Below the pieces are notes generated by a model. It was not told the DNA's origin and searched no databases. It saw nothing but the letters and a program-made list of their open reading frames with translations. 63,143 nucleotides of DNA, taken from NCBI GenBank assembly GCA_018702695.1, contig JABIYR010000101.1:1-63143 (forward strand), given 5' to 3'. The stretch's first letter is position 1. Every line of letters starts with the position of its first letter. Positions 5,151-40,745 of the stretch are shown piece after piece. The stretch is from Nitrospina sp. (GTDB taxonomy: Bacteria > Nitrospinota > Nitrospinia > Nitrospinales > VA-1). The position numbers and the translations under genes are program-made.

Positions 5151-5762
5151 ATGAAAAAATTCTTAAGCACCATTTCGTTAGTTGTTTTGATGGTTGTTAT
5201 AGTTGTTCCCAAACTGGTTTTTGCAGTCAGCCTAGATCGGGGGCCGCAGGGATCGGTGGAATACCTCTTGGGAGAAATTCGCCAGATCAAAGCGGATAAA
5301 AATCAAACCATCAAGGCAGAAAACCAGAAACACTCTCAATTGGCCCTGAGCCAGTTAAACGTAGCGCAGATCAGCAAAAAAGCGTTGGGAAAATATTGGT
5401 CCCAGCGCAGTGATTCTGAAAAGAAAATGTTTCAGAATCTATTGGGCGAGCTATTCATTCATGTGGCGTTTCCCAGTTCGGCTAAATTTTTTGCCGAACT
5501 GGATTTAATATATGGAAAAACCAAGGCAGAAAAACAAAGGATGGTGGTACCTTTGACTGTTGTTCATGAAAAAGAGGGGGAAGTTGGGATTGACTTTCGC
5601 CTAACCCAGACCAAAGGCCAATGGCAGGTGGTGGATGTGGTTCTAGATGGGGTGAGCATGCGGAACAATTTACGCAATCAGTTTTATAAGGTGATATCTA
5701 AAAAAGATTTTAATCAACTCACTCGCAAAATGGAAAAAAAGTTGAAAGCCGCAAAACGCTGA
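5151..5762 (+). CDS. mlaC: MlaC/Ttg2D-family periplasmic phospholipid-binding protein
   Basis: N-terminal signal peptide. Length is about 200 aa, and the C-terminal WQVVDVVLDGVSMRNNLRNQF segment is typical of the toluene-tolerance Ttg2D/MlaC family. Confidence 0.7.
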   Translation: MKKFLSTISLVVLMVVIVVPKLVFAVSLDRGPQGSVEYLLGEIRQIKADKNQTIKAENQKHSQLALSQLNVAQISKKALGKYWSQRSDSEKKMFQNLLGELFIHVAFPSSAKFFAELDLIYGKTKAEKQRMVVPLTVVHEKEGEVGIDFRLTQTKGQWQVVDVVLDGVSMRNNLRNQFYKVISKKDFNQLTRKMEKKLKAAKR

Positions 5763-14295: not shown

Positions 14296-14787
14296 ATGAA
14301 TTTACCCAATCTTCGCATAGGCAATGGTTATGACGTACACCGTTTGGTAGAAGGGCGCAAACTCATTCTAGGCGGGGTCGAAGTTCCCCACTCGTTAGGG
14401 TTGGATGGGCACTCCGATGCCGATGCATTGGTGCACGCATTATGCGATGCCTTGCTAGGAGCATTGGGGGCAGGAGATATCGGCGCCTACTTCCCCGATA
14501 CCGATCCGCAGTGGAAGGGAATCTCAAGCCTGTTGTTGCTCAAAGAAGTGATGCGGATGTGTCGAGAAAAAGGTTTCGAGCTGGCCAATGCCGACACCAT
14601 CATGGTGGCGCAAAAACCCAAGCTGGCTCCCCACCTTCCGCAGATGATAAAAAATATGGCCGCCACAATGAATGTGGAAAGCGAGCGCATAAATATTAAA
14701 GCCACCACCACAGAAAAGCTCGGTTTTGCCGGGCGGGAAGAAGGCATTGCCGCGTATGCGGTCGCCTTATTGATAAAAAATGTCTGA
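14296..14787 (+). CDS. ispF: 2-C-methyl-D-erythritol 2,4-cyclodiphosphate synthase
   Basis: RIGNGYDVHRL and GHSDADALVHAL zinc/substrate motifs. It is monofunctional at 163 aa. Confidence 0.96.
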   Translation: MNLPNLRIGNGYDVHRLVEGRKLILGGVEVPHSLGLDGHSDADALVHALCDALLGALGAGDIGAYFPDTDPQWKGISSLLLLKEVMRMCREKGFELANADTIMVAQKPKLAPHLPQMIKNMAATMNVESERINIKATTTEKLGFAGREEGIAAYAVALLIKNV

Positions 14788-16021
14788 TTTGAACGAACGC
14801 ATTGTCATCACAGGAATCGGGTTGACCGCCCCCAACGGCAACAACCTGAAAGAATTCCGCGAAAACCTGTTGAACGGGGTTTCCGGAGTGCAACAATTCG
14901 AGACCCGTTATATGGGTTCGGTGCATGCCGGAGTCTGTGATTTTGACGAGCTAAAATATCAGAAAAAAAAAGAACGCCGTCGCGGAACCCGCGTCGGTTC
15001 CGTGTCCATCTATTGCTCGCGCGAAGCCATTGCCGATGCCGGAATTGACCTCGAAGCCATCGACCGCTCAAGAGTAGGGGTTTATCTCGGCGTGACCGAG
15101 CATGGCAATGTCGAGACCGAGAACGAAGTTTATAACATCAGTCAATACGGTTACGACACCAAGTTCTGGTCGCATCATCATAACCCGCGCACCGTGTCCA
15201 ATAACCCCGCTGGTGAAGTGACACTAAACATGAAGATCACTGGCCCGCATTACACCATCGGCGCGGCCTGTGCGGCTGGCAATATGGGCGTTATCCAAGG
15301 CTTGCAAATGTTAAGGTTGGGAGAAGTCGATCTCGCATTGGCAGGCGGGGTGTCCGAGAGCATCCATACATTTGGTATTTTTGCCAGCTTCAAAAGTGAA
15401 GGCGCGTTGGCAGAACACCAAGACCCGACTAAAGCTAGCCGACCTTTCGATAAAAACCGCAATGGCATCGTTTGTTCAGAAGGCGGTTGCGTCTATACCT
15501 TAGAGCGTTTATCCGACGCACAAAAACGCGGCGCGAAAATTTATGGTGAAATCGTTGGTTATGCTATCAACTCCGATGCGGTCGATTTTATTTTGCCCGA
15601 CCCCGGCAGGCAAGCCGAGTGCATCCGTCTGGCGTTAGACCGGGCCGGGTTGCAACCGGGCGATATCGATATTCTCAATGCCCACGCCACCGCAACGCAG
15701 ATGGGCGATATTCAAGAGACTAAAGCCATCCGAGAAGTGTTTGGCGAAACCAGTAAAACCCGCATCAACAACACCAAAAGTTTCATCGGTCATACCATGG
15801 GCGCGGCGGGCACTTTAGAATTATCGGGCAACCTGCCCGCTTTCGATGACCACATGGTACACCCCACCATCAACCTCGACGACCTCGACCCTCAATGCGC
15901 CTTGAACAATCTGGTCGCAAACAAACCCGAAAAACTCGACTCCGTCGATTACATCATGAACAACTCCTTCGGCATGTTCGGCATCAACTCTGTTCTCATT
16001 GTAAAACGCTACCAAGAATAA
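14780..16021 (+). CDS. fabF: beta-ketoacyl-ACP synthase, elongating FabF/FabB type
   Basis: Cys-His-His triad in GAACAAG, NAHATAT and IGHTMGAAG. The ATG overlaps the ispF stop by 8 nt (ATGTCTGA). Confidence 0.9.
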   Translation: MSDLNERIVITGIGLTAPNGNNLKEFRENLLNGVSGVQQFETRYMGSVHAGVCDFDELKYQKKKERRRGTRVGSVSIYCSREAIADAGIDLEAIDRSRVGVYLGVTEHGNVETENEVYNISQYGYDTKFWSHHHNPRTVSNNPAGEVTLNMKITGPHYTIGAACAAGNMGVIQGLQMLRLGEVDLALAGGVSESIHTFGIFASFKSEGALAEHQDPTKASRPFDKNRNGIVCSEGGCVYTLERLSDAQKRGAKIYGEIVGYAINSDAVDFILPDPGRQAECIRLALDRAGLQPGDIDILNAHATATQMGDIQETKAIREVFGETSKTRINNTKSFIGHTMGAAGTLELSGNLPAFDDHMVHPTINLDDLDPQCALNNLVANKPEKLDSVDYIMNNSFGMFGINSVLIVKRYQE

Positions 16022-16066
16022 GGTAAGCACCAAAGAACTACTTTTCTTCAGTCTAGCAGGTTGCTG

Positions 16067-16090
16067 AAAAACTCATCATGATGAGTTTTT
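16067..16090 (+). terminator. AU-rich perfect palindrome after the KS gene (weak terminator-like hairpin)
   Basis: AAAAACTCATCATGATGAGTTTTT is a perfect 24-nt palindrome 46 nt after the KS stop, followed by TCTTC. The stem is AT-rich, so its function is uncertain. Confidence 0.35.
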
Positions 16091-16136
16091 TCTTCGATGT
16101 CATGCTGAGGTGGTTATGTTGCACATTAGCTTTTCT

Positions 16137-16209
16137 GCCCCGAATGGGGTATCCGAAGCATACACCCTATGAAAAGGGTTTATCCCCCTTCGAGTACCCC
16201 ATTCGGGGC
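16137..16209. repeat. 73-nt long inverted repeat (nested hairpins) in the KS-ACP spacer
   Basis: GCCCCGAATGGGGTA (16137-16151) is the exact reverse complement of TACCCCATTCGGGGC (16195-16209). Each arm is itself a CCCC-nnnn-GGGG mini-hairpin, and an inner ACCCT-atgaaa-AGGGT hairpin lies between them. Confidence 0.7.
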
Positions 16210-16440
16210 ATGAAGGCTAATGGTGGAGATTCACAAACCTCAGGGTGGCAGGGAAAAGGATGGCGGGAAACGGGCTTACCATATTTTCGCTGGCAAGGAT
16301 GGCGACCTTCTGGTTTCTCTTGTTGCTCTATTTATGAGGTGAGGGTGATTTTTGTCTTCTTTGCGGGTGGATTTAGGCTTGAAATCTGCCCTATCTTCTA
16401 TTAAAATCAAGGTTAATGGAGACTTTGGAGAGAAGTAATA

Positions 16441-16704
16441 ATGACGATTGAAGAAGTACGACAGATTATTCTTAATATCCTTGCTGACATTGCTCCTGAC
16501 GAGGATATCAGTTCCATCGATGACAACACCAAATTGAGAGACCAGATTGATCTGGACTCGATGGATTTTTTGGATATTGTGATGGAGCTTAGAAAACGTT
16601 TTAATATTGAAGTGCCGGAAAAAGATTATGAACATCTGGCGACGATGGCCGGTTGTGTTTCTTACCTCACTCCTTTATTAAAAGGCCGTTCTATGGCTAG
16701 CTAA
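16441..16704 (+). CDS. acyl carrier protein (divergent, pathway-dedicated type)
   Basis: 87 aa with the phosphopantetheine Ser motif DLDSMDFLDIVMEL. GGAGA lies upstream of the ATG. Confidence 0.85.
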   Translation: MTIEEVRQIILNILADIAPDEDISSIDDNTKLRDQIDLDSMDFLDIVMELRKRFNIEVPEKDYEHLATMAGCVSYLTPLLKGRSMAS

Positions 16705-16768
16705 TTCCCCCCCTGCTAATTTTCCTTTTTATCGAATTTCAAACTGAAAAACCTGTATTTCTGAGCCA

Positions 16769-18163
16769 ATGACCTATAATCAGGGTATGGATACCATAAT
16801 TATAGGTGCAGGCTTATCGGGTTTGGCGGCGGGCATTCGCTTGGCGATGTTCGACAAAAAGGTCTGCATTGTCGAAAAACACACGGTGGTCGGTGGTTTG
16901 AACTCGTTTTATTCGAGAAAAAACCGTCTGTTCGATGTGGGCTTGCACGCCATGACCAATTTCACCCCTAAAGGGGTGCGTTCTTCTCCGCTCGGTAAAC
17001 TTCTTAAACAACTTCGTTTCAGTCATGATGACTTCCGCTTATGTCAGCAGGAGATGTCTGAGATCCGCTTTCCTGATAGTTCGCTTTGTTTCACCAATGA
17101 GTTTGAGTTTTTTCGGCAGGAGGTGGCTGAAAAATTTCCCGCACAGATTGACGGCTTCAACAAGCTGGTAGAAAAAATCCGCAATTATGATGAGTTGAGT
17201 TTAGAAGGTGCCGATGGCCTTTCTTCGCGCCCAGTGCTGGAGTCTTTTATCAATGACCCGGTGTTGATCGACATGCTGTTTTGTCCGCTGATGTATTACG
17301 GCAATGCGCGTGAAGGGGATATGGATTTTTATCAGTTTGTCATCATGTTCAAGAGCATTTTTATTGAAGGTTTTTCTAAGCCGCAAGGGGGGATGAATTA
17401 TATCCTCAACCTCATGGTTCAGCGCTACAAAGATTTGGGCGGTGAAATGCGCTTGGGCAACGGGGTTAAAGCCATCAACACCCGGCAGGGTTCTGTCTCG
17501 TCCGTAACGCTCGAAGATGGGGAGGAGCTTGCCACGCAGGCGGTGCTTTCGTCTATGGGTTATATCGAAACGATGCGCTGTTGTGAGCCGGAAATTCCTG
17601 CCATCGAGATTTGCGAGACGGGTCAGGTTTCGTTCATGGAGTCTTTGTTTGTGGTGGATAAAATGCCACGCGACTTGGGCTATGATAAGAGCATTGTGTT
17701 TTTTTCGACTCAGCCACGTTTTGATTATAAGGTTCCTGCTGATTTGATTGAAACGTCGACCGGAGTGTTGTGTTGCAGTAATAATTTTAAATACCCGGAA
17801 CCGCTTGAGGAGGGGTTGATTCGCTTGACCAATCTGGCCAATTTTGGGAAATGGGACGGTTTGCCGAGAAAAGATTATATCGCGGCAAAAAAAGAGTGTC
17901 GGGCTCGCGCTTTGGACGCTTTATTTACATTTTTCCCCGATTTTAGCGAGAATATGGTATTTTTAGACTCGTTTACGCCTAAAACTATTAAAAAATATAC
18001 GGGCCATATTAACGGGGCCGTGTATGGTGCGCCAGAAAAAATAAAAAATGGCAAAACACCGGTAAAAAACCTATATATTTGCGGGACAGATCAAGGTTTT
18101 TTAGGTATTATTGGGGCCACATTGAGTGGTATTTCCATGGCAAACTTGCATGTTTTGCAATAG
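16769..18163 (+). CDS. FAD-dependent oxidoreductase, phytoene desaturase (CrtI/CrtISO/RetSat) family
   Basis: N-terminal dinucleotide fold IIIGAGLSGLAAG...EKHTVVGGL and a C-terminal CrtI-type motif LYICGTDQGFLGIIGATLSG. Length 464 aa. Confidence 0.8.
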   Translation: MTYNQGMDTIIIGAGLSGLAAGIRLAMFDKKVCIVEKHTVVGGLNSFYSRKNRLFDVGLHAMTNFTPKGVRSSPLGKLLKQLRFSHDDFRLCQQEMSEIRFPDSSLCFTNEFEFFRQEVAEKFPAQIDGFNKLVEKIRNYDELSLEGADGLSSRPVLESFINDPVLIDMLFCPLMYYGNAREGDMDFYQFVIMFKSIFIEGFSKPQGGMNYILNLMVQRYKDLGGEMRLGNGVKAINTRQGSVSSVTLEDGEELATQAVLSSMGYIETMRCCEPEIPAIEICETGQVSFMESLFVVDKMPRDLGYDKSIVFFSTQPRFDYKVPADLIETSTGVLCCSNNFKYPEPLEEGLIRLTNLANFGKWDGLPRKDYIAAKKECRARALDALFTFFPDFSENMVFLDSFTPKTIKKYTGHINGAVYGAPEKIKNGKTPVKNLYICGTDQGFLGIIGATLSGISMANLHVLQ

Positions 18164-18198
18164 CGGGTCTATCAAAATAATCAACGGTTTCAGAATTG

Positions 18199-19647
18199 AT
18201 GAATAAACCATCGAAAGACTGGTTGAAGGGTGCTTTATCTGCTTACGATACGGTGGTTATCGGGAGTGGTCTGGCGGGGATGACTTCAGCCAATCTCCTG
18301 GCTAAGCTGGGTCATAAGGTTTTGCTGGCAGAGCACCATTATAATATGGGGGGCATGGCAACCTGGTTCAAACGCAAGGGCGGGCATATCATGGATATCT
18401 CGTTGCATGGGTTTCCCTGCGGAATGATAAAAACTCTGCGCAAATACTGGAGTCAGGATATCTCGAGCCGGGTTATCCAGCTCAAAAATGTACGCTTCGA
18501 AAACCCTCAATTTTCCCTCACTACTTCATTTGATAAAACAGATTTTACGCGAATTCTGCGTGAGCATTTCGGCATTTTAAAAGAAGTGGTCGATGAGTTT
18601 TTTGTGACAGCTCGGGGCATGAATTTTTATGACGACATGGTCATGACCACTCGAGATCTGTTTGAAAAATATTTCCCCGGTCGCACCGATGTTTGGCGAT
18701 TTCTCATGGAACCGATCACCTACGCCAACGGCTCCACTTTGGATGACCCGGCGTTGACCTATGGCATCGTATTTTCTAACTTCATGGATAAGGGTGTTTT
18801 CACTTATCAGGGTGGAACGGATCATCTGATTAAAGAAATGAAGCGGGAGTTGATCAAAAACGGTGTGGACATTCGCACGCATTGCATGGTCGAAAAAATT
18901 TACGTAGAAGATAAATCGGTGCGCGGAGTTCGCATCAACGGTCAGGATATTCAGTGCCGCTCGGTGCTTTCCAATTCAAATTTATTGACCACCATTGAGC
19001 AGTTGACGGGCGAAGAACATTTTCAACCTGAATTTATTAAAGAGGTCAAAAAGGTTCGCCTGAATAATTCGAGCTGTCAGGTATATATGGGCATTAAAAA
19101 GGGCGAAACGGTGCCGAATGTGGGAGACCTTCTGTTCACCTCGAGTGCCGATGAATATTGTACGGAAAAAATATTGAGCAAGGATATCACCAGCCGCACA
19201 TTTTCATTTTATTATCCGGAAATTCGTCCGGGCAGTAATCGTTATTCAATTGTTTCATCGACCAATGCTCGCTATCAGGACTGGGCGAGTTTGAGCGAAT
19301 CGCAATATAAAAAAGATAAACATGATTTAGAACAAAATACGCTTGATGCTCTGGATAAATATGTTCCTGGCATTCGTGATAAAGTAGACCATGTGGAAGC
19401 GTCAACACCAAAAACTTTTAAACGCTACACCCTGCACCCATCGGGCACTTCGTTTGGAACCAAGTTTGAAGGGCTAAAAATAAGTAGAGACCTGCCCAAG
19501 CAAATTGACGGTTTGTTCCATGCTGGATCGGTGGGGATTATCATGTCCGGTTGGCTGGGTGCGGCAAATTATGGGGTCATTGTCGCGAACGAAACCGACA
19601 AGTTTCTGCGTCAGGTGAGCCCAACTCTGGTGACTGCGTCAGCATAA
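18199..19647 (+). CDS. FAD-dependent oxidoreductase, phytoene desaturase (CrtI/CrtISO/RetSat) family, paralogue 2
   Basis: [34 protein letters not shown] and a C-terminal [22 protein letters not shown] prefer the ATG at 18199, one codon inside the TTG at 18196. Confidence 0.8.
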
Positions 19648-19742
19648 AGCGGTAGGGGTCTGCTTAAATAATGTTTCTCTCTTTTTTCTGATTCCAGAAT
19701 TTTTTTTATTCCCAATATTTGCAAACTCGATAATTGATAAAT

Positions 19743-20486
19743 ATGAAATTTGATTTTACAGGCCAGACGGCTCTGATTACGGGTGGTACGCGCGGCATAG
19801 GCAGAGCTATCTCTGAAGCTTTTTTAAAAGCTGGAGCCAAAGTCGTTGCTACCTATCGCGGTAATGATATGGAAGCGGAGAATTTTAAGAATGCCAACGC
19901 CGACTACGCCGATTTTCTTGATATCCACAAATTTGATGTCACTGACTATGAGGCCGTCGAAAATTTTTATAAGGAAGTAGAAAAAAAGCATGACAACTTC
20001 CAAATTCTCGTGGTGAGTTCAGGAATTCGTGCTGATTCGATTGTTGGAATGATGAAGGCCGAAGATTGGAATCGAGTCATCAATACGAACCTGACAGGAA
20101 CTTTCAACTTAAGTAAATTGGCAGTGCAGTCTATGATGCGCCAGCGATACGGCAGAATCATCACGTTGACTTCGCCTATTGGCAAATTTGGTTTTGCCGG
20201 ACAAGCTAATTATGCGGCCTCGAAAGCGGGTCAAGTGGCGTTCACCCGATCTTTGTCGAAAGAGGTTGCAAGCCGAAAGATCACCGTCAATTGTGTTTCA
20301 CCCGGCTTCATCGATACCGATTTTATCAGTGACTTGCCAGACGAGCAGAAAAAAGCATATAAAGATCAAATTCCACTAAAACGATTTGGAACACCGGAAG
20401 ATGTCACCTACCCCGTCCTATTTCTGGCAGCAAAGCAGTCTGCCTATATCACCGGTTCGGTGTTAGAAGTGACTGGCGGGCTGTAA
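19743..20486 (+). CDS. fabG: 3-oxoacyl-ACP reductase (SDR, FabG-like)
   Basis: ALITGGTRGIGRAI cofactor motif and YAASKAG catalytic Y-x3-K. I prefer the ATG at 19743 (MKFDFTGQTALITGG) to the TTG at 19734. Confidence 0.88.
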   Translation: MKFDFTGQTALITGGTRGIGRAISEAFLKAGAKVVATYRGNDMEAENFKNANADYADFLDIHKFDVTDYEAVENFYKEVEKKHDNFQILVVSSGIRADSIVGMMKAEDWNRVINTNLTGTFNLSKLAVQSMMRQRYGRIITLTSPIGKFGFAGQANYAASKAGQVAFTRSLSKEVASRKITVNCVSPGFIDTDFISDLPDEQKKAYKDQIPLKRFGTPEDVTYPVLFLAAKQSAYITGSVLEVTGGL

Positions 20487-20547
20487 TCGTTGTAATAGAA
20501 GAATTAACCCCCCGGCAAGTTTTTTTCCGCTAATGGAGTGACCCCCT

Positions 20548-20970
20548 ATGCAGGATTTTCTTCAATACATTCCCCATCGTCCTCCTTTCTTATTTGTTGA
20601 CCGCGTGTTGGAAGAAACGGATACAACCCTCAAAGCAGAAAAAACGATCGACCCGAAGGAACCTTTTTTTGAAGGCCATTACCCAGGCCAGCCGATCATG
20701 CCGGGAGTCTTGATCTGTGAATCTATTTTTCAAACGGGTGCAATCATGATGGGAAAACGCATCGCTAATGAAGGTCGCATCCCCGTTCTCACCCGTGTCA
20801 ATAATATTAAGTTTAAACATGCAGTGCACCCCGGAGACACGATGCAGATCGAAGTGACACTCAAAGATATCGTTAGCTCTGCCGCTTATATGACGGGCAA
20901 AGCGATGGTTGGCGGTAAAACCGCAGTTAGCTTAGAGTTCACCGCCATGTTGGTTGAGGAGACAAAATGA
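20548..20970 (+). CDS. fabZ: 3-hydroxyacyl-ACP dehydratase, FabZ/FabA hotdog family
   Basis: HRPPFLFVD, the catalytic His in [14 protein letters not shown] and Glu in ICESIFQ. Length 140 aa. Confidence 0.88.
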
Positions 20971-21755
20971 GTTTTCTAAATTTGGAAGATAAGAATTTCC
21001 TCGTGACGGGGGTCGCCAATAAAAAAAGCATCGCGTGGCATATCGCAAAAACATTGGAAGAAGAAGGGGCGCATGTCATTTACAGTGTTCGTTCTGAAGA
21101 CCGCAAAAAATCGTTAGAAAAACTTTTAGCGGGTAAAACCGTGTTGGTCTGTGACGTGGAAAAGCAGGAAGACATAGAAAGTTTAAAAACCGAGGTGGCA
21201 CAACATTGTGAGGTATTGCATGGAATGATTCATTCCATCGCTTTCGCAAACTATTCCGAAGGTTGGAAACCCTTTCACGAAACACTGAAAAAAGATTTCC
21301 TCCAATCTCTAGATATCAGTTGTTATTCGCTGATCAACCTTGCCAATGCTTTTAAAGAAATATTAGATCGACAGGCATCCATCGTTACAGTGTCCATCTC
21401 AACCACTCGCATGGCGGCGGAGAATTATGGTTATATGGCACCCATGAAAGCGGCGCTGGACTCGACACTCTGTTTTCTGGCCAAATCGTTCAGCGCATTT
21501 TCGCAAATCCGCTTCAACTCTATCAATCCGGGTCTGCTTAAAACATCTGCTTCAGCAGGCATCCCGGGCTATATCGATTCCTATTTGCATGCTGAAAAAG
21601 CCACGCTCAGAAAAAAAGGCCTGACTACTCAAGAAGCGGCTAATGCGGCTATATTCTTACTGAGCGAACGGGCCAGCGGTATCAATGCCCAAAGCCTCGT
21701 TCTCGATGCCGGAATGTCGATTAATTATTTTGATCAGGCACTGATCAAAGGGTAA
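20967..21755 (+). CDS. fabI: enoyl-ACP reductase, FabI type
   Basis: [18 protein letters not shown] and a Y-x6-K arrangement in [12 protein letters not shown]. There is a 4-nt overlap with the dehydratase gene. Confidence 0.85.
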
Positions 21756-21806: not shown

Positions 21807-23102
21807 TTATAGGCTAAATTTATTTTTAAGAAGCGTAGCGCAGGCATGGTGGTTGTTGGCCCGAAGATCTCCCATTAATTCAGATAGGCTTTTGCGGGTG
21901 GTTGTTTCTTGAATATCCATGTTATAGGTTTTAACGATTTCGTCAATGCTTCCGATATAATATGAGATCAGTTTGTTGTCTCCGCGTTGAATAAATTCAA
22001 GGGTTTTGTTTTGTGCCAAAAGAAGACCCTTTCCCTGACTGATTTTCTTGACGGGTCGAATAACTTTTGCGATGGGGGTAGGTTTAATATCATCTCCCTT
22101 CATTGCAATAGACTGTTTTCGCTCGGTTTGTTCTACTAAAGTCAACTCTTTGGCTTTTTTTAGCGGAGCCAGGGCTTTTTGATAACATTCAATGGCTTTT
22201 TGCTTTTCATGAAGAACAAGATAAATATCGCCCATCTGTGTAAGAAGCAGCCCTTCATATTTTGTATCGCGGTATTGCTCTGCCAACTCGAGGCCCTCAC
22301 CAACCCGTTTTAAAGCTTGCTCGGGTTCTTCTGACAACACATAAATTTCTCCAAGTTGCAAAATAATTTCTAGTTCATCACTTCTGTTATTCAACCCACG
22401 AGCAAGCGTGAGGCTGGCCTCCAAATATTTTTCGGAACGAGATAAATTTTTGAGTCGTCCCTGGCAATACCCAATATGTTTTAGTAGCGTGGCAATACAG
22501 AGCCCATTATTGGCATCTTTGGCTTTTCTTACTCCTTCTTTCATTTTAGGGACGGCTTTATCGAACTCGCCAGTTTGTTCATAAGCCAAACCCAATCTCA
22601 TTAAGCTGATATCCTCATCCACCTCGAATTGATGCTTTAGGCACAGTTCCTTTTTTTGTAACAATATATCTATGGCGTCCTCATTTTTATTCTGAGCGAG
22701 ATTCAGATTGGCTATTTCATTATAAATTTTAGCCTGGGTGGGGTAATCTTCTAGAGTGGCAGTCAATTGATTTGCTCTCTCCAAGTATTCCTTTGCGGCG
22801 ATATATTTCTTTTTAGTAACGTTAAATGCACCCAGATTTAGAAGGTGCGTGGCTTCGCTAGTTTTCATCTGCAATCGCTGAGAAACTTTAAGTCCGGTTT
22901 CCATGAATTTTAACCAGTCTCTGGGGAAATAGCGATGTGGAAACAAATTAACCCCGGAAAGAATATAGGAATTAAATATCTCGGCTGCCTTTTTTCCTTC
23001 CACGCTATTTTTATGCATGCGATTAAAACCAGCATTAATATTAGGCCATTCTCGATGAAATACCTGATATCCTAGCCGGGCTTTTTCACCCCCCTTTATC
23101 AC
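21807..23102 (-). CDS. TPR-repeat protein, partner of the upstream NB-ARC NTPase
   Basis: About 6-8 TPR-like units (for example AKIYNEIANLNLAQNKNEDAIDIL, LMRLGLAYEQTGEFDKAV and LLTQMGDIYLVLHEKQKAIECYQKAL) plus a non-TPR tail of about 100 aa. The GTG start overlaps the NB-ARC stop (GTGA). Confidence 0.8.
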   Translation of the reverse strand: MIKGGEKARLGYQVFHREWPNINAGFNRMHKNSVEGKKAAEIFNSYILSGVNLFPHRYFPRDWLKFMETGLKVSQRLQMKTSEATHLLNLGAFNVTKKKYIAAKEYLERANQLTATLEDYPTQAKIYNEIANLNLAQNKNEDAIDILLQKKELCLKHQFEVDEDISLMRLGLAYEQTGEFDKAVPKMKEGVRKAKDANNGLCIATLLKHIGYCQGRLKNLSRSEKYLEASLTLARGLNNRSDELEIILQLGEIYVLSEEPEQALKRVGEGLELAEQYRDTKYEGLLLTQMGDIYLVLHEKQKAIECYQKALAPLKKAKELTLVEQTERKQSIAMKGDDIKPTPIAKVIRPVKKISQGKGLLLAQNKTLEFIQRGDNKLISYYIGSIDEIVKTYNMDIQETTTRKSLSELMGDLRANNHHACATLLKNKFSL

Positions 23103-24331
23103 ATTTTCATGCGCCGATTTTGAATGGGCAAATAATAATTTGCATGCCGCAGCCGGGCTTCTCTCGCAAGGGTATCTGGGAGATAATTTTTGAGTTGGTT
23201 TTTTATCCAGGGATCAAGCGTATAGCGTTTGGAGACAGAGTTAATTATAACAAGCCCAAATTGAGCCAGGGATTTGAGGCAATTGCCATTTTCCTCACAG
23301 ACATAAGCCGAAGCCTTTGCATCAAAAGATGAGGGGAACACCTCCAGTTGATTAAAAACCAGCTTTTCTTTATCGCCTAAGGAATTATAAATCGCCTTGA
23401 AGGCGGCTGTTAAAGATTCTTCGTGCATATCATTTTCTTCTAGTAACGAATTTTTCTGATATTTCCGAAACAGTTGGATAAAGTCCTCAGGATGAACTTT
23501 CATGTTAGAAGAAAGAAAATTTCCAACCATCTGTATGGTTAAAGGGAGACTGCGACATAGTTTGGCGATTTCTCTGGCCCGAGGTTTTAATCTGAGAGAA
23601 CAATCAATCAAAAATTCCTGCGCTGGTTCGATTTCTAAAGGTTCCATATTAAAGGAAACCGCATTCGTTAAGCGAAGTGTTTTTAACCCAGTCACAATGA
23701 CCAGCCAAGACCCAGAAGGTTTCATATCTTTAACCTGCTTGGCTGAAGCAATATTATCCAGAATAAAAATGCCTTGTCGTGAGGCCATCATGTTCTGGTA
23801 AAGTTTTTTAAGTTGCGTCAGGTTATCTGGAATGCGTGTTGTGGGTCGAAAAGATAAGACAACCTGAATCATAGCATCCCTGATAGACAGGGCACCTTCT
23901 GTCTCCCCGCCAAGATCCAGGTAGAGTTTAATGTTTTGGTGGTTGTATTGATGCCTTTTGGCTATATTTAGTGCTAATGCGGTTTTTCCTATGCCTGACC
24001 TGCCACACAATTCAATGACCGACTTCTCTTTGTTAATGACATTAAAAATCTGCATGAGAAGATCTTCCTGGCCAAATAAAACCTTTGAATGAGAAGACTC
24101 TGGCAGTGAGCAGAGTTTCTCTTTCAGTTCAGTTTTTGCTTTTTCCAAATTCAGGGTCCACTGAACGAGGTTATCGGGAGAAGTCTCACTGATATTGCTG
24201 GCTGCAGGTTTATTTTCTCTTACAGGTTGAATCTCCTCCCCACTGCTCGGAATCTTATTTTTACCTCGCATCAGTTTAGATACTAAAAAAATGACCAACC
24301 CGAGCACAAAAGTGAACACTCCATAGGTCAT
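23099..24331 (-). CDS. membrane-anchored NB-ARC (STAND) P-loop NTPase
   Basis: N-terminal TM helix (GVFTFVLGLVIFLVSKLM), Walker A GRSGIGKTALAL, Walker B GIFILDN, LVIVTG, a GxP-type motif CRSLPLTIQMVG and a winged-helix-like LVFNQLEVFPSSF. Confidence 0.8.
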   Translation of the reverse strand: MTYGVFTFVLGLVIFLVSKLMRGKNKIPSSGEEIQPVRENKPAASNISETSPDNLVQWTLNLEKAKTELKEKLCSLPESSHSKVLFGQEDLLMQIFNVINKEKSVIELCGRSGIGKTALALNIAKRHQYNHQNIKLYLDLGGETEGALSIRDAMIQVVLSFRPTTRIPDNLTQLKKLYQNMMASRQGIFILDNIASAKQVKDMKPSGSWLVIVTGLKTLRLTNAVSFNMEPLEIEPAQEFLIDCSLRLKPRAREIAKLCRSLPLTIQMVGNFLSSNMKVHPEDFIQLFRKYQKNSLLEENDMHEESLTAAFKAIYNSLGDKEKLVFNQLEVFPSSFDAKASAYVCEENGNCLKSLAQFGLVIINSVSKRYTLDPWIKNQLKNYLPDTLAREARLRHANYYLPIQNRRMKM

Positions 24332-24695: not shown

Positions 24696-25541
24696 TTATT
24701 CTTTTTCCCAGGTTTCCTGAATAAAAGAAGCGGTTCGATGAGTCAGGTGGCAATGTTTGCACCCTGTTTTCCCGAGCAATCCAACATTTTTCCAGAACTG
24801 TCCTGGGTTGGGTTTTTCGGCGTTGAGCTCTTTTGCTAGGTTGTCAAAAGCGGACTCCGCAATTTTACCAACATAGAACAGTTTGACATCATCCGTGGTG
24901 TGGCATTTAGAGCAGGTTGACTTCATTTCCATAAAGCGAGATTTAAAAATTTTTAAAGCCTTGGCGGAACGGCCATATTGTCCCTCGCCAAAATTTACTG
25001 TCACCCCCTTGAAGGAAGACGAAATTGTACTCATATAATCATCGAAGCCCATTTCTTTTTCGGTGATGGGGTCGGTGACTTTAATTTTATGGAATCGGGG
25101 CCAATGGAATTGAGCCCATACAGAAACTTCTTGTTCGGCGTGGCATTTGCCGCAAGTTTTACCCAACCCTCCTGAGGCTTTTCCTGCTTTGGCGATATCA
25201 TGTGTTTTAGCGGCCTGAGTGAAAGCTTCTGCGGCTTTAATATCGAAATAGTCCTTCCATTCCGGAACCATTTTAGAAGTTTTTTTATATTCCTCTAACA
25301 GCTGGTCAGCATGTTTGTCGACGTTGGCAAAATCTTTTTCTTTTAGATTGATAAACACTCCACCAAAATGTGTGCTCAATTTGTGCATCTGTTGAATCCA
25401 TTTCGGTTCTTTACTTTCAGGGGGATAGAATTGCGATAAAGATTTGGGCGGCTCTTTCACAACCATATCTTTCGCGTGGGTTGGCAGTACCACTGCGAAG
25501 GTGAAAATAATAAAACATGAAAGAATTCTGAAAAATTTCAT
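24696..25541 (-). CDS. periplasmic trihaem c-type cytochrome with class-II-like helical modules
   Basis: Three CxxCH motifs (CGKCH, CSKCH, CKHCH) and a signal peptide MKFFRILSCFIIFTFAVVLPTHA. The ATG at 25541 lies 6 nt after AAGGAG, and the upstream part of ORF 24696..25604 is probably not translated. Confidence 0.8.
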   Translation of the reverse strand: MKFFRILSCFIIFTFAVVLPTHAKDMVVKEPPKSLSQFYPPESKEPKWIQQMHKLSTHFGGVFINLKEKDFANVDKHADQLLEEYKKTSKMVPEWKDYFDIKAAEAFTQAAKTHDIAKAGKASGGLGKTCGKCHAEQEVSVWAQFHWPRFHKIKVTDPITEKEMGFDDYMSTISSSFKGVTVNFGEGQYGRSAKALKIFKSRFMEMKSTCSKCHTTDDVKLFYVGKIAESAFDNLAKELNAEKPNPGQFWKNVGLLGKTGCKHCHLTHRTASFIQETWEKE

Positions 25542-25616
25542 GAGCATCTCCTTGTAGAAAATTAAAAGAAATCGATTTGAAAGTATCACGAAACGCACTG
25601 ACAAAAATGACTTTGA

Positions 25617-26603
25617 TCAGGGCCGTATGAGTTTTTCCCAGATTGTTTGTTTTTCTTTGGACCAAGCCGGTTGATATTTTAAAATAACGTTCGCATGATC
25701 TACGGGATCAAAAAGGCGGTAACGAAAATTCACCGCTTTATTGAAAGCCAAAGCGGTTTCCTGCTGAGGTGCTAAAATTTCTTTAGCTTGGTCTACTTGT
25801 TCGCCAGCCGCATTGAAAAAGGTGATATAGAGATAAAGCCGGGGGTCGCCATTGTCAGCAGTCGGTACTGCGTGTGGAACTGTTTTGTTGAGTAGCCTGA
25901 GAGTGAAATAATTATTTCTAAATTCGGCTTCCATGAGTATATTTTTTTCCGTTAAATCACCATGCAAAAATTTATGGTTGCCGACCCATTTTTTCTTGTG
26001 TAACAAGCTGAATGGAAATTTTTGCGTCAGTCGACTTTTGATGCGAGGCATGTGACAGTCCTGACACGTATCGTCTATCCCAGTATTTTTCCATTCTTTA
26101 AAAGTCTTCTGGTGACAAGAACCACAAAACTCAGATCGAACAAATTCCGGGTTGCGGAAAGTGGGGTGCGCCGGCGCAACCAGATCGTAAGGCCCGTTCA
26201 TTTTATTGTCACGGAAGTGACAGGAAACACAATAAATTCCTTCATCACGCCGATCTAATCTGGGGCTAGGTTTTTCTCCCGTGACGGATTCGGGTATATG
26301 ACAGGCTAGGCATTTTTCTTTGGTGCGGTTTTCGGAAGCTTCAATAAAAGTTTTGCTGGTCCAAGAAATGGCGTGTCGGCTGGCTTTCCAAGAATCGTAT
26401 ATAGCTTGATGGCAGTCGGAACAACGTTTTGCATCGGGCCGCTTTAAAAGATCAGGTTCTCGTGCCAGCTCAAGAACCGTTTGAGGAATCCACTCAAATT
26501 TTTCGTTGATAAAAAAATAGGCGGTAGCAATTCCGGCAACTGCGAAACATGCCAGCGCGGTAAATAGATTTAAGAGTCGAGTTGATAATTTCAATGCTTT
26601 CAC
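25617..26603 (-). CDS. membrane-anchored pentahaem c-type cytochrome
   Basis: Five CxxCH motifs (CSDCH, CLACH, CVSCH, CGSCH, CQDCH) and an N-terminal TM anchor LFTALACFAVAGIATAYFF. The first haem context, CSDCHQAIYDSWKASRHA, is typical of multihaem families. GTG start. Confidence 0.85.
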   Translation of the reverse strand: MKALKLSTRLLNLFTALACFAVAGIATAYFFINEKFEWIPQTVLELAREPDLLKRPDAKRCSDCHQAIYDSWKASRHAISWTSKTFIEASENRTKEKCLACHIPESVTGEKPSPRLDRRDEGIYCVSCHFRDNKMNGPYDLVAPAHPTFRNPEFVRSEFCGSCHQKTFKEWKNTGIDDTCQDCHMPRIKSRLTQKFPFSLLHKKKWVGNHKFLHGDLTEKNILMEAEFRNNYFTLRLLNKTVPHAVPTADNGDPRLYLYITFFNAAGEQVDQAKEILAPQQETALAFNKAVNFRYRLFDPVDHANVILKYQPAWSKEKQTIWEKLIRP

Positions 26604-39117: not shown

Positions 39118-39936
39118 ATGGTCAGATCATTTTTCGGGTTTATTGGAAGACGGGGGTTCGAGTTCACCGGAGTCTTTGAGAATTTCTTCAAAGAGATCAG
39201 TGGATTGTATTACCTGACCCGGGCCACTTTATATTGCACATTTTTAGAACCTCTACGCGGCAAACCGAATAAGTGGAAGCCGGTATGGACGCAGATGGAG
39301 GAAGTCGGAGTCAAATCGACCACCATTGTATTTCTGGTGTCATTTCTGATTGGGGTTATTCTTGCATTTCAATCGGCGCATCAGTTGAGCCGTTTGGGAG
39401 CGTTAGACTTTGTAGGGGCTTTGGTCGGCGTTGCCATTTTGCGCGAGTTGGGGCCTTTGATGACAGCGCTAGTTATGTCTGGGCGGGTCGGGGCGGCATT
39501 CACTGCTGAATTGGGAACAATGAAGGTTTCCGACGAAGTGCTAGCATTAGAGATCATGGCATTGAACCCGGTCAAGTTTTTGATCACGCCTCGATTTTTG
39601 GCATTGTTAATCATGCTCCCGTGCTTGACCATCATGGCAGATTTGATGGGAATTTTAGGCGGGTTTCTAATTGGCACCACCACGCTGGGCATTGACCCGG
39701 TGACCTATATCAATAATTCGCTCGATGCGATGGTGATTAAGGACGTGGTAACCGGCTTGATCAAAAGTGTGGTGTTCGCGGTTATCATTGTCATGGTGGG
39801 TAGCTATATGGCTTTCATCATAGAAGGTGGCGCCGAAATGGTCGGGCAGAACACCCGCACCGCAGTTGTGGTATCGATGATTTTGGTGATCATCGCTGAC
39901 TTGGTATTTACATCCTTATTTTTCTTTGTGACCTGA
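39118..39936 (+). CDS. mlaE: MlaE-family ABC transporter permease
   Basis: About 270 aa and polytopic, with GALVGVAILRELGPLMTALVMSGRVGAAFTAELGTMKVSDEVLALEIM, characteristic of MlaE/Ttg2B. Confidence 0.9.
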   Translation: MVRSFFGFIGRRGFEFTGVFENFFKEISGLYYLTRATLYCTFLEPLRGKPNKWKPVWTQMEEVGVKSTTIVFLVSFLIGVILAFQSAHQLSRLGALDFVGALVGVAILRELGPLMTALVMSGRVGAAFTAELGTMKVSDEVLALEIMALNPVKFLITPRFLALLIMLPCLTIMADLMGILGGFLIGTTTLGIDPVTYINNSLDAMVIKDVVTGLIKSVVFAVIIVMVGSYMAFIIEGGAEMVGQNTRTAVVVSMILVIIADLVFTSLFFFVT

Positions 39937-40742: not shown

Positions 40743-40745
40743 ATT

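What the first reader, a model, noticed from the sequence alone, without database searches (positions are those of the whole stretch)
14780..21755. Self-contained type-II-FAS-like cassette with a divergent ACP and two CrtI/RetSat-family flavoenzymes, translationally coupled to ispF
Seen: seven co-directional genes. They are an elongating KS (Cys in GAACAAG, His in NAHATAT and IGHTMGAAG) and an 87-aa ACP whose Ser motif is DLDSMDFLDIV rather than the housekeeping DLGADSLD type. Next come two paralogous flavoproteins of about 470 aa, with GxGxxG N-termini ([26 protein letters not shown]) and CrtI-type C-terminal FAD motifs. Last are a FabG-like KR, a FabZ/FabA hotdog dehydratase and a FabI-type enoyl reductase. 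The KS ATG overlaps the ispF stop by 8 nt (ATGTCTGA). The cassette is therefore appended to rpsB-tsf-pyrH-frr-uppS-cdsA-dxr-ispF, where many diderms instead carry rseP-bamA-skp-lpxD-fabZ-lpxA. The window contains no FabD, FabH, thioesterase or acyltransferase. Established: CrtI/CrtISO/RetSat-family enzymes desaturate, cis-trans isomerise or saturate C=C bonds in long lipophilic chains, and they are not part of canonical FAS. From memory, unverified here, candidate ladderane clusters of anammox bacteria also combine FAS paralogues with a phytoene-desaturase homologue. Inference: this is an ACP-tethered pathway making a tailored acyl chain (polyunsaturated, isomerised, or an alternative anaerobic unsaturated-fatty-acid route). 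It may be co-regulated with isoprenoid and phospholipid precursor genes.
Basis: partly seen in the sequence, partly recalled or inferred. Interest (0 to 1): 0.78.

Follow-up and report, generated by a model that had tools for sequence, protein, structure and literature searches.

The report
Flavoenzyme-bearing fatty-acid synthase cassette, olefin-linked
A marine nitrite-oxidiser (Nitrospinaceae) carries a second, dedicated fatty-acid-synthase gene set with two carotenoid-desaturase-like flavoenzymes; the same set sits next to the olefin (oleABCD) hydrocarbon genes in five other bacterial phyla, so it probably builds an unusual unsaturated lipid chain by an uncharacterised route.

Summary
Seven co-directional genes lie at 14780-21755: KS, ACP, two CrtI-superfamily flavoproteins (FpA, FpB), KR, FabZ-type DH and FabI-type ER. 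The KS start overlaps the ispF stop by 8 nt.

The window is Nitrospinaceae, not anammox. KS, ACP and ER score below NCBI's housekeeping cut-offs. Both flavoproteins score far below every carotenoid-enzyme cut-off.

The order KS-ACP-FpA-FpB-(KR)-DH-ER recurs in Nitrospinota, Verrucomicrobiota, Planctomycetota, Desulfobacterota, Bdellovibrionota and Dehalococcoidia. The KS is 63-73% identical across phyla.

In 25 of 80 related loci, in three different arrangements, the cassette is fused to oleABCD, the head-to-head olefin genes. In Shewanella and Geobacter a Pfa polyunsaturated-fatty-acid synthase holds that position.

Best reading (about 0.5): a dissociated, ACP-dependent synthase for a (poly)unsaturated acyl chain, with the flavoproteins acting as isomerases or desaturases on ACP-bound intermediates.

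The ispF coupling is specific to this lineage, and a hairpin-rich 419-nt spacer separates KS from ACP. No ole gene lies in the window. I could not check for a housekeeping FAS elsewhere in the genome. The anammox candidate desaturases are not orthologues.

The parts
14296..14787 (+). ispF (MEcPP synthase). It is the upstream neighbour, and its stop overlaps the KS start.
   Evidence: TIGR00151 scores 216 bits against a cut-off of 116. Sequence shown.
14780..16021 (+). Elongating ketoacyl-ACP synthase with a Cys-His-His triad. It belongs to a cassette-specific orthologous group.
   Evidence: It scores 332 bits on TIGR03150 fabF, below the 494 cut-off. It scores about 240 bits against FabF structures, yet is 63-80% identical to the KS of the same cassette in other phyla.
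16022..16440 (.). Spacer of 419 nt between KS and ACP. It holds a 24-nt perfect palindrome plus T run (16067-16090), a roughly 100-nt imperfect palindrome (16124-16222) and a promoter-like TTGAAA-17-TAAAAT (16379-16407).
   Evidence: The same gap is 57-62 nt in L084 and L085. The only Rfam match is a chance miRNA-hairpin hit below threshold.
16441..16704 (+). Dedicated acyl carrier protein with its Ser in DLDSMDFLD.
   Evidence: PF00550 scores 36 bits. All NCBIfam ACP models score below their cut-offs; the best is 45 against 66. It is 52-77% identical to the cassette ACPs elsewhere.
16769..18163 (+). Flavoprotein A (FpA), a CrtI/amine-oxidase-superfamily FAD enzyme. It always follows the ACP.
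   Evidence: PF01593 scores 61 bits. crtI_fam scores 63 bits against a 238 cut-off. The family is discrete, with 264 clusters at E <= 1e-30. The best structural matches are CrtI-type folds, but the model is low-confidence (pLDDT 70).
18196..19647 (+). Flavoprotein B (FpB), a distant paralogue of FpA. The start is TTG at 18196 or ATG at 18199.
   Evidence: It is 22% identical to FpA. crtI_fam scores 78.5 bits against 238, and CrtD scores 95 against 550. It is 55-75% identical to FpB in other phyla.
19734..20486 (+). FabG-type 3-ketoacyl-ACP reductase; the likely start is ATG at 19743. This component is optional and is absent from most PVC (Planctomycetota and Verrucomicrobiota) loci.
   Evidence: TIGR01830 scores 283 bits against a 298 cut-off. 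NF009466 scores 249.5 against 222. Distribution.
20548..20970 (+). FabZ-type 3-hydroxyacyl-ACP dehydratase with a His/Glu active site. It is not FabA-type.
   Evidence: NF000582 scores 130.5 bits against a 113 cut-off; fabA scores only 38-40 bits. PDB matches are FabZ.
20967..21755 (+). FabI-type enoyl-ACP reductase with the Y-x6-K motif. Its start overlaps the DH stop by 4 nt.
   Evidence: The best FabI model scores 177 bits against a 391 cut-off. It is 55-73% identical to the cassette ER elsewhere.

Best explanation
The cassette is a dissociated (type II), ACP-dependent 'secondary lipid' synthase that runs alongside ordinary fatty-acid synthesis.

Proposed mechanism:
- The dedicated KS extends a chain on the dedicated ACP.
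- KR and the FabZ-type DH produce trans-2-enoyl-ACP.
- The ER fully reduces the chain in some cycles.
- In other cycles the two CrtI-superfamily flavoproteins act on the ACP-bound enoyl or acyl intermediate, so that double bonds are kept and repositioned. This would be flavin-dependent geometric and/or allylic isomerisation, or oxygen-independent dehydrogenation.
- The result is a (poly)unsaturated medium-chain acyl product.

In many lineages OleABCD takes this product directly and condenses it head-to-head into a long polyene hydrocarbon of the C31:9 type. The cassette is therefore a type II counterpart of the Pfa synthase.

In this Nitrospinaceae genome the cassette sits after ispF. Its product would go to ole genes elsewhere in the genome or into membrane lipids.

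Shown here: the gene content, the separate orthologous groups, the cross-phylum conservation and the ole linkage. Inferred: the chemistry of FpA and FpB, the nature of the product and its fate in Nitrospina.
For: 1. Dedicated system. KS, ACP and ER score below the NCBIfam equivalog cut-offs, yet are 52-80% identical to their counterparts in the same cassette in other phyla.
2. Conserved order in six phyla. KS-ACP-FpA occurs in 56 of 80 related loci, and FpB-(KR)-DH-ER lies within reach in 37.
3. Ole linkage in three independent arrangements:
   - KS-ACP-FpA-oleABCD-FpB-KR-DH-ER in Smithella and Bdellovibrionales
   - ...DH-ER-oleA-oleB in 11 Opitutaceae loci
   - oleC-oleD-KS... in 8 Planctomycetota loci (oleD alone in 6), with an oleA on the opposite strand after the ER in 3
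   - oleA copies inside the cassette in Dehalococcoidia

4. Ole identity. OleC scores 500 bits on olefin beta-lactone synthetase, OleD 395 bits on 2-alkyl-3-oxoalkanoate reductase, and OleA 394-433 bits on PRK09258, above its cut-off. JGI names some homologues acyl-CoA:acyl-CoA alkyltransferase.
5. The Dehalococcoidia locus adds its own PPTase and FabD.
6. Literature:
   - D. psychrophila has phytoene-dehydrogenase-like genes in its FAS clusters, no Pfa-type PKS, and makes C31:8/C31:9 hydrocarbons (PMC2649909).
   - n-C31:9 is 'often present in planctomycetes' (PMC6995999).
   - Geobacter bemidjiensis has pfa and ole in tandem (PMC4882568).
   - oleC was reported in a Nitrospinaceae MAG (PMC10176705).
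7. The DH is FabZ-type, so any isomerase function must lie elsewhere.
Against: - No ole gene lies in the 63 kb window or within 10 kb of the cassette in any Nitrospinota locus.
- No lipid data exist for polyenes in Nitrospina.
- No member of the FpA or FpB families has been assayed.
- The anammox homologues that were tested are not orthologues, and the test only showed absence of CrtI activity.
- CrtI-type chemistry normally gives conjugated double bonds, not methylene-interrupted ones.
- Several genomes carry KS-ACP-FpA without FpB-DH-ER nearby, and some carry FpA alone.
- Many loci come from MAGs, whose taxon labels may be wrong.
Confidence: 0.5

Rival explanations
1. The cassette is an alternative, oxygen-independent route to ordinary monounsaturated membrane fatty acids, analogous to FabX or FabA/FabB. 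A flavoprotein would make cis-3-enoyl-ACP and the KS would play the FabB role.
For: Kuenenia is reported to lack FabA (PMC2649909), and a MAG labelled Ca. Kuenenia carries KS-ACP-FpA (L076). A flavoenzyme route (FabX) exists in Helicobacter pylori (own knowledge). The DH is FabZ-type. Nitrospinota and some PVC loci show no ole linkage.
Against: A bulk-lipid route would not need its own ACP, KR, DH and ER. The repeated fusion with oleABCD and the dedicated PPTase and FabD in L061 point to an insulated specialised product. Two distinct flavoproteins are conserved, not one.
Confidence: 0.15
2. The FAS-like genes supply ordinary acyl chains. FpA and FpB act later, desaturating or isomerising the Ole-derived long hydrocarbon (or its beta-lactone or keto-acid precursor), much as CrtI acts on phytoene.
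For: CrtI-family enzymes act on long free lipophilic chains (established knowledge). The best fold and sequence matches are CrtI, CrtD and PDS. In Smithella and Bdellovibrionales, FpA and FpB flank oleABCD.
Against: FpA immediately follows the ACP in 63 of the 83 related loci compared, including loci and phyla with no ole gene nearby, Nitrospinota among them. The published C31:9 structure is methylene-interrupted and derives from a polyunsaturated C16 precursor (PMC4882568). That does not fit stepwise CrtI-type desaturation.
Confidence: 0.1
3. The cassette makes some other specialised acyl chain, unrelated to polyenes. In this reading the ole neighbourhood only reflects shared lipid regulation. 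Examples would be a chain for lipid A, an ornithine or hydroxy lipid, or a cofactor precursor.
For: The ACP motif DSxDFLD resembles that of specialised ACPs such as AcpXL (own knowledge). The weak NCBIfam hits include OlsHI-type and other special ACPs.
Against: No acyltransferase or lipid A gene accompanies the cassette in any locus examined. The ole linkage recurs in three different gene orders across five phyla, which is hard to explain without a functional coupling.
Confidence: 0.15
4. It is simply the housekeeping fatty-acid synthase of Nitrospina, with two unrelated flavoprotein genes inserted.
For: FabZ passes its equivalog cut-off and FabG passes a subfamily cut-off. I could not inventory the rest of the genome.
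Against: KS, ACP and ER fall well below their cut-offs. FabD and FabH are absent from the window, so other fab genes must lie elsewhere. A groundwater Nitrospinae lineage has the cassette without a KS and in a different neighbourhood. The same orthologous set occurs patchily in phyla where a standard FASII is documented, for example Kustd1386.
Confidence: 0.05
5. The two flavoproteins are carotenoid or other isoprenoid enzymes. In this reading they would be tied to the upstream dxr-ispF genes, and their adjacency to the FAS genes would be accidental.
For: They lie directly downstream of MEP-pathway genes. The best named HMM hits are carotenoid isomerase, CrtD and the crtI family.
Against: Their scores are 63-95 bits against cut-offs of 238-587. 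No crtB or crtE lies in the window. The ispF neighbourhood is restricted to Nitrospinaceae, whereas the ACP/KS neighbourhood is found in all six phyla.
Confidence: 0.03

Closest known systems
Pfa (pfaABCDE) polyunsaturated fatty-acid synthase coupled to OleABCD (Shewanella, Geobacter bemidjiensis)
   Same: It occupies the same genomic position beside oleABCD. It uses the same set of activities (KS, ACP, KR, DH, ER) and needs no oxygen. It has the same presumed role, supplying the acyl precursor of a C31 polyene hydrocarbon.
   Different: Pfa is a type I multidomain megasynthase with tandem ACPs, KS-CLF and FabA-like DH/isomerase domains. The cassette consists of discrete proteins, has a FabZ-type DH and carries two CrtI-superfamily flavoproteins that Pfa lacks. 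The KS scores only 82 bits on the PfaA model.
Extended FASII clusters with 'phytoene dehydrogenase' genes in Kuenenia stuttgartiensis and Desulfotalea psychrophila (Rattray et al. 2009; Javidpour et al. 2016)
   Same: FAS paralogues, an extra ACP and CrtI-like flavoproteins occur together. Those authors proposed a novel anaerobic PUFA or polyene-hydrocarbon route. D. psychrophila makes C31:8 and C31:9 and lacks a Pfa PKS.
   Different: Those clusters also hold radical-SAM and SAM-methylase genes, non-canonical KS genes and a CoA ligase, none of which is present here. The first 128 residues of kuste3336 and kuste3607 are only 25-32% identical to FpA. I could not test whether DP2405 and DP2406 are orthologues of FpA and FpB.
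CrtI / CrtD / CrtISO carotenoid desaturases and isomerases
   Same: They share the FAD-binding fold, an N-terminal GxGxxG motif and a C-terminal FAD motif. They give the best sequence and fold matches.
   Different: Scores are far below the family cut-offs. FpA forms a discrete family of about 264 clusters. The genomic partners are an ACP and FAS enzymes, not crtB or crtE.
Flavin-dependent fatty-acid double-bond enzymes: H. pylori FabX, P. acnes polyenoic fatty-acid isomerase, R. sphaeroides UfaD (own knowledge, not tested here)
   Same: They set a precedent for flavoenzymes that create or move C=C bonds in acyl chains, including on acyl-ACP (FabX). UfaD and the isomerase are, as I recall (not checked here), related to the amine-oxidase/CrtI fold.
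   Different: FabX belongs to another fold family. No PDB chain named as that isomerase appeared among the sequence or fold hits listed (the Foldseek table shows only the best 50). None of these enzymes sits in a KS-ACP-KR-DH-ER cassette.

Membership tests
Housekeeping type II FAS (NCBIfam equivalogs) | KS reaches the FabF equivalog score (TIGR03150, 493.75 bits) | tested here: not met
   332 bits. The Cys-His-His triad is present.
Housekeeping type II FAS (NCBIfam equivalogs) | ACP reaches the AcpP equivalog score (TIGR00517, 70.45 bits) and has the DSLD motif | tested here: not met
   36.8 bits, and the best ACP model scores 45 against 66. The motif is DSMD.
Housekeeping type II FAS (NCBIfam equivalogs) | ER reaches a FabI equivalog score | tested here: not met
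   The best score is 177 bits against a 391 cut-off. The Y-x6-K motif is present.
Housekeeping type II FAS (NCBIfam equivalogs) | DH reaches the FabZ equivalog score; KR reaches a FabG score | tested here: met
   FabZ NF000582 scores 130.5 against 113. FabG subfamily NF009466 scores 249.5 against 222, but TIGR01830 scores 282.7 against 297.75.
Housekeeping type II FAS (NCBIfam equivalogs) | It is the only fabF/acpP/fabI set in the genome | not testable with these tools
   Only 63 kb of the genome is available, and no tool inventories a chosen genome.
CrtI / phytoene desaturase family | Reaches the family score (TIGR02734, 238.1 bits) or a CrtD or CrtISO equivalog score | tested here: not met
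   On TIGR02734, FpA scores 62.8 bits and FpB 78.5. The best equivalog score is 95 against 550.
CrtI / phytoene desaturase family | Carotenoid-pathway partners (crtB, crtE) lie nearby | tested here: not met
   No such gene among the ORFs scanned in the window or among the genes called in the related loci whose Pfam labels were listed.
Pfa-type PUFA synthase | Type I multidomain proteins with tandem ACPs, KS-CLF and FabA-like DH | tested here: not met
   The proteins are discrete. The DH is FabZ-type. The KS scores 82 bits on PfaA against a cut-off of 1010.
OleABCD-associated precursor synthase (proposed here) | Cassette adjacent to ole genes | tested here: not met
   Met in 25 of 80 related loci across five phyla. 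Not met in this window or in any Nitrospinota locus.
Anammox candidate ladderane clusters | Flavoprotein orthologous to kuste3336 or kuste3607, with adjacent radical-SAM or SAM-methylase genes | tested here: not met
   The N-terminal 128 residues are 25-32% identical to FpA (only partial sequences were available). There are no radical-SAM genes in the cassette.
Aryl-polyene (APE) clusters | ApeI/ApeP-type DH, a KS/CLF pair and export genes | tested here: not met
   The DH scores 16.6 bits on ApeI-like against 28.5. There is a single KS with a full triad.

The most novel reading that the evidence does not exclude
FpA and FpB are flavin-dependent acyl-ACP isomerases. One would carry out the trans-2 to cis-3 shift and the other the trans-2 to cis-2 geometric isomerisation. 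Together with a plain FabZ, FabI and a dedicated KS and ACP, they would form a third, oxygen-independent, fully dissociated route to methylene-interrupted polyunsaturated acyl chains. This route would be distinct from both desaturase/elongase systems and Pfa megasynthases. It would be the unrecognised source of C31:9 hydrocarbons in Planctomycetota, Opitutales, Desulfobacterota, marine Dehalococcoidia and possibly Nitrospina.
Probability: 0.3. Interest if true: 0.88.

Novelty: new variant of a known kind. Interest (0 to 1): 0.72.

Why it matters
If the reading is right, it names the genes for a long-suspected pathway that has never been demonstrated. The first hint came in 2009 from Desulfotalea and Kuenenia.

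It would explain how bacteria without a Pfa synthase make polyunsaturated chains and the widespread C31:9 hydrocarbon.

It would extend that capacity to globally abundant groups, including marine Nitrospina and Dehalococcoidia. That bears on marine hydrocarbon budgets and on how this biomarker is interpreted.

It would show new chemistry for CrtI-family flavoenzymes acting on carrier-protein-bound substrates.

It would also provide small, separable enzymes for engineering polyunsaturated lipids or olefins.

Tried and rejected
- **Anammox origin of the window.** Rejected: every homologue of FpA at 68% identity or more that carries a source name is from Nitrospinota.
- **Orthology with the structurally solved anammox proteins.** The ACP and DH match ordinary ACP and FabZ structures. 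The beta-hydroxyacyl-ACP dehydratase entries 7qv0 and 8ay*, which I take from memory to be the anammox FabZ, score only about 84 bits.
- **RNA element in the KS-ACP spacer.** Only a sub-threshold miRNA-hairpin match, which is the palindrome.
- **AlphaFold model of FpA.** The shallow alignment gave pLDDT 70 and pTM 0.43. Foldseek confirmed the CrtI/PDS/GDI fold class, but TM-scores of about 0.3 allow nothing finer.
- **First attempt at the genome scan.** A 49-sequence alignment was too diverse and failed. It worked with 19 sequences.
- **Looking for Nitrospinota oleA.** I searched with the OleA of the most Nitrospinota-like locus (L061). The named hits among the 120 listed were all Dehalococcoidia.
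- **Canonical AcpP in the fetched loci.** None found.
- **Fab genes in the N. gracilis genome paper.** Neither the text nor the supplement lists them.
- **Literature linking ole genes with phytoene-desaturase-like genes, or Nitrospina with such genes.** Nothing found. Sukovich et al. 2010 is not held.
- **The divergent SDR upstream of the KS in Verrucomicrobiota.** I considered it as a missing KR or OleD, but it is GalE.

Full report
**1. Observation**

Pfam and NCBIfam assign them to the following families:
- ketoacyl synthase
- PP-binding carrier protein
- two amine-oxidase/CrtI-superfamily flavoproteins
- FabG-like SDR
- FabZ-type hotdog dehydratase
- FabI-type SDR

FpA and FpB are distant paralogues, at 22% identity and E = 2e-24. 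The KS ATG overlaps the ispF stop within ATGTCTGA, and DH and ER overlap by 4 nt.

None of the ORFs I scanned in the rest of the 63 kb window (those of about 200 aa and more) is a FabD, FabH, thioesterase, acyltransferase, crtB, crtE or ole gene, and tblastn with the FabD and Ole queries found nothing there either.

**2. Corrections to the anatomy**

KS and ACP are separated by 419 nt. This spacer contains three features:
- a perfect 24-nt palindrome followed by a T run (16067-16090)
- an imperfect palindrome of about 100 nt (16124-16222)
- a promoter-like TTGAAA-17-TAAAAT just before the ACP (16379-16407)

In two Nitrospinaceae relatives whose flavoprotein A is 70% identical to the window's, the same gap is about 60 nt, and ispF and KS are 180-460 nt apart. 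In L082 the gap is about 500 nt. The start/stop overlap with ispF is therefore a feature of this lineage only.

In this genome, ACP through ER may be transcribed separately from ispF-KS. In a groundwater Nitrospinae lineage the unit is ACP-FpA-FpB-KR-DH-ER. There it lies after flagellar genes, with no KS or ispF nearby.

**3. Organism, and what the proteins are not**

Homologues of FpA at 68% identity or more that carry a name are all from Nitrospina, Nitromaritima or Nitrospinaceae. The window is therefore from a marine-type nitrite oxidiser, not an anammox bacterium.

| Protein | Model | Score (bits) | Cut-off (bits) |
|---|---|---|---|
| KS | FabF equivalog | 332 | 494 |
| ACP | best ACP model | 45 | 66 |
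| ER | best FabI model | 177 | 391 |
| DH | FabZ (NF000582) | 130.5 | 113 |
| FpA | crtI family | 63 | 238 |
| FpB | crtI family | 78.5 | 238 |

Only FabZ and a FabG subfamily model pass their cut-offs. Neither flavoprotein exceeds 95 bits on any CrtD or carotenoid-isomerase model, whose cut-offs are 550-587. The best solved structure, CrtI 4dgk, gives 45 bits.

A search of 1.84 billion representative proteins shows that FpA belongs to a discrete family. It has 264 clusters at E <= 1e-30, against 4,599 at E <= 1e-3.

An AlphaFold model (pLDDT 70) matches CrtI, CrtD and PDS first, but is too poor for detail.

**4. Distribution and conservation**

A scan of one genome per GTDB species, using a 19-sequence FpA alignment, returned 80 loci. 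By the organism names in their records they come from:
- Verrucomicrobiota (Opitutales, Puniceicoccales; isolates include Horticoccus and Pelagicoccus)
- Planctomycetota (Pirellulales, Planctomycetales, Gimesia, Fuerstiella, Thermoguttaceae, and a MAG labelled Ca. Kuenenia)
- Nitrospinota
- Smithella (Desulfobacterota)
- Bdellovibrionales
- a Dehalococcoidia MAG

I ran tblastn with the seven window proteins against these loci. KS-ACP-FpA occurs in 56 of 80 loci, and FpB-(KR)-DH-ER lies within reach in 37.

Identity to the window proteins in phyla other than Nitrospinota:

| Protein | Identity (%) |
|---|---|
| KS | 63-73 |
| ACP | 52-64 |
| FpA | 42-56 |
| FpB | 55-67 |
| ER | 53-63 |

By contrast, the KS scores only about 240 bits against solved FabF structures. 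The cassette proteins therefore form their own orthologous groups.

The KR is present in Nitrospinota, Smithella, Bdellovibrionales and Dehalococcoidia, but absent from most loci of the PVC phyla (Planctomycetota and Verrucomicrobiota). The Dehalococcoidia locus also carries a PPTase and a FabD. That is what one expects of an insulated, parallel synthase.

**5. The key new finding: linkage to oleABCD**

In Smithella and Bdellovibrionales four genes sit between FpA and FpB:
- a thiolase-fold KSIII-like protein
- an alpha/beta hydrolase
- an AMP-binding enzyme
- a 3-beta-HSD-type reductase

NCBIfam identifies them as follows:
- PRK09258, the family that I take to be OleA's: 394 bits against a 285 cut-off
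- a haloalkane-dehalogenase-like hydrolase, which is OleB-like
- olefin beta-lactone synthetase: 500 bits
- 2-alkyl-3-oxoalkanoate reductase: 395 bits

JGI names some OleA homologues acyl-CoA:acyl-CoA alkyltransferase.

Using these four as queries, ole genes appear beside the cassette in 25 of the 80 loci, in different arrangements:
- KS-ACP-FpA-oleABCD-FpB-KR-DH-ER (Smithella, Bdellovibrionales)
- KS-ACP-FpA-FpB-DH-ER-oleA-oleB (11 Opitutaceae loci, including the Horticoccus isolate)
- oleC-oleD-KS-ACP-FpA-FpB-DH-ER (8 Planctomycetota loci, 6 of them with oleD alone; 3 loci have an oleA on the opposite strand after the ER)
- oleA-KS-ACP-oleA-KS-FpA-FpB-KR-DH-ER-PPTase-FabD (Dehalococcoidia)

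Neighbourhood that survives this much rearrangement in five phyla is strong evidence of functional coupling.

**6. What the literature adds**

- In Shewanella, OleABCD makes C31:9 from a 16:4 chain supplied by the Pfa synthase. Geobacter bemidjiensis has pfa and ole genes in tandem (PMC6463001, PMC4882568). The cassette occupies the place of pfa.
- Rattray et al. (PMC2649909) noted FAS clusters with phytoene-dehydrogenase-like genes in Kuenenia, Desulfotalea, Geobacter and Pelobacter. They found no Pfa-type PKS in D. psychrophila, yet detected C31:8 and C31:9 there, and they proposed a novel anaerobic PUFA route. That proposal has never been tested successfully.
- Javidpour et al. (PMC4790861) showed only that kuste3336 and kuste3607 lack CrtI activity.
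- n-C31:9 is 'often present in planctomycetes' (PMC6995999).
- ole genes are known in Planctomycetes and Verrucomicrobia (PMC7158056).
- oleC was reported in a Nitrospinaceae MAG (PMC10176705).
- From memory only, since the paper is not held: Sukovich et al. 2010 reported C31:9 in Opitutaceae TAV2 and Planctomyces (Gimesia) maris.
- I found no paper that links ole genes to these flavoproteins.

**7. Relation to the anammox clusters**

The first 128 residues of kuste3336 and kuste3607, translated from the published synthetic genes, are 25-32% identical to FpA. They resemble FpB only over the Rossmann motif. They are superfamily relatives, not orthologues.

The KS-ACP-FpA trio in the MAG labelled Kuenenia (L076) does not match the published gene order of kuste3603-3608 or kuste3335-3341. 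It is either a further locus or a labelling problem.

**8. Mechanism (inferred)**

The DH is FabZ-type, with a Glu in the active site, so it offers no FabA-like isomerase. Making a methylene-interrupted polyene during elongation requires two double-bond manipulations of trans-2-enoyl intermediates: a shift to cis-3 and a change to cis-2.

The CrtI/amine-oxidase superfamily contains flavoenzymes that carry out redox-neutral cis-trans isomerisation (CrtISO) and allylic double-bond migration (P. acnes isomerase). This is my own knowledge, not tested here. Two conserved, distinct flavoproteins, the first always next to the ACP, fit such roles. Oxygen-independent dehydrogenation is the alternative. 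Strict anaerobes (Smithella, Desulfotalea) carry the system, so the chemistry cannot need oxygen.

**9. What remains open for this genome**

- No ole gene lies within reach in any Nitrospinota locus.
- I could not inventory the genome for ole, pfa or a housekeeping fab set.
- No lipid data for Nitrospina bear on this question.

The rival readings are listed with their weights: a monounsaturated-fatty-acid route, flavoproteins acting on the Ole product, another special lipid, housekeeping FAS, and carotenoid enzymes.

**10. Verdict**

It is a conserved, uncharacterised secondary lipid synthase found in six phyla, most likely the type II counterpart of the Pfa synthase in olefin and PUFA biosynthesis. 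The proposed co-regulation with isoprenoid genes is a local accident of gene order.

Noticed in passing
window 16022-16440: The KS-ACP spacer is 419 nt here but about 60 nt in relatives. The extra sequence holds a perfect 24-nt palindrome with a T run and an imperfect palindrome of about 100 nt. It looks like an inserted hairpin element. No second copy occurs in the window or in the fetched loci.
   Followed up: partly
window 21807-24331 (- strand): An NB-ARC NTPase gene (23099-24331) and a TPR protein gene (21807-23102) overlap by 4 nt. They lie between the cassette and two cytochrome genes. In relative L084 the cytochromes follow the ER directly, so this STAND-type pair looks like an insertion.
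   Followed up: partly
window 24696-26603 (- strand): Two adjacent c-type cytochrome genes with several CxxCH motifs. Cytochrome genes (weak or faint Pfam labels apart from Cytochrome_C554) lie at the same position in L084, and this pair sits next to pheS in the window.
   Followed up: no
L007, L022, L023, L034, L038, L041, L045, L051, L060, L063, L069, L071, L072, L080: These FpA-family members (42-52% identity) stand alone, with no cassette KS or ACP detected in the flanks available (10 kb on both sides in only some of them, such as L023, L069 and L071). This happens mostly in gut or freshwater Verrucomicrobiota and in some Planctomycetota. The family is therefore not confined to the cassette.
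   Followed up: no
L006, L009, L014, L021, L025, L027, L036, L055, L065, L077: KS-ACP-FpA is present with 10 kb of downstream flank but no FpB-DH-ER. The cassette thus behaves as two sub-modules, KS-ACP-FpA and FpB-(KR)-DH-ER, that can lie apart.
   Followed up: no
L048 17030-19499: A Pirellulaceae locus carries a second FAS/PKS-like group about 5 kb downstream of the cassette. It has two hotdog DH genes, an ACP with a more AcpP-like motif (DLGAESIDFLD) and a KS only 30% identical to the window's.
   Followed up: no
L061 1-11609: A marine Dehalococcoidia MAG has the fullest version of the system: two OleA-like genes, two cassette KS genes, ACP, FpA, FpB, KR, DH, ER, a PPTase and a FabD, all on one strand. 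Its OleA family is abundant in metagenomes, with 120 clusters at 67% identity or more.
   Followed up: partly
L076 6914-9829: A lake MAG labelled Ca. Kuenenia stuttgartiensis carries KS-ACP-FpA (68%, 52% and 53% identity to the window). This does not match the published kuste3335-3341 or kuste3603-3608 gene orders. It is either a third locus or a wrong taxon label.
   Followed up: partly
window 5151-5762 and 39118-41861: Lipid-trafficking Mla genes are split: mlaC lies near the start of the window, and mlaE, an ABC ATPase gene and mlaD lie 33 kb away.
   Followed up: no
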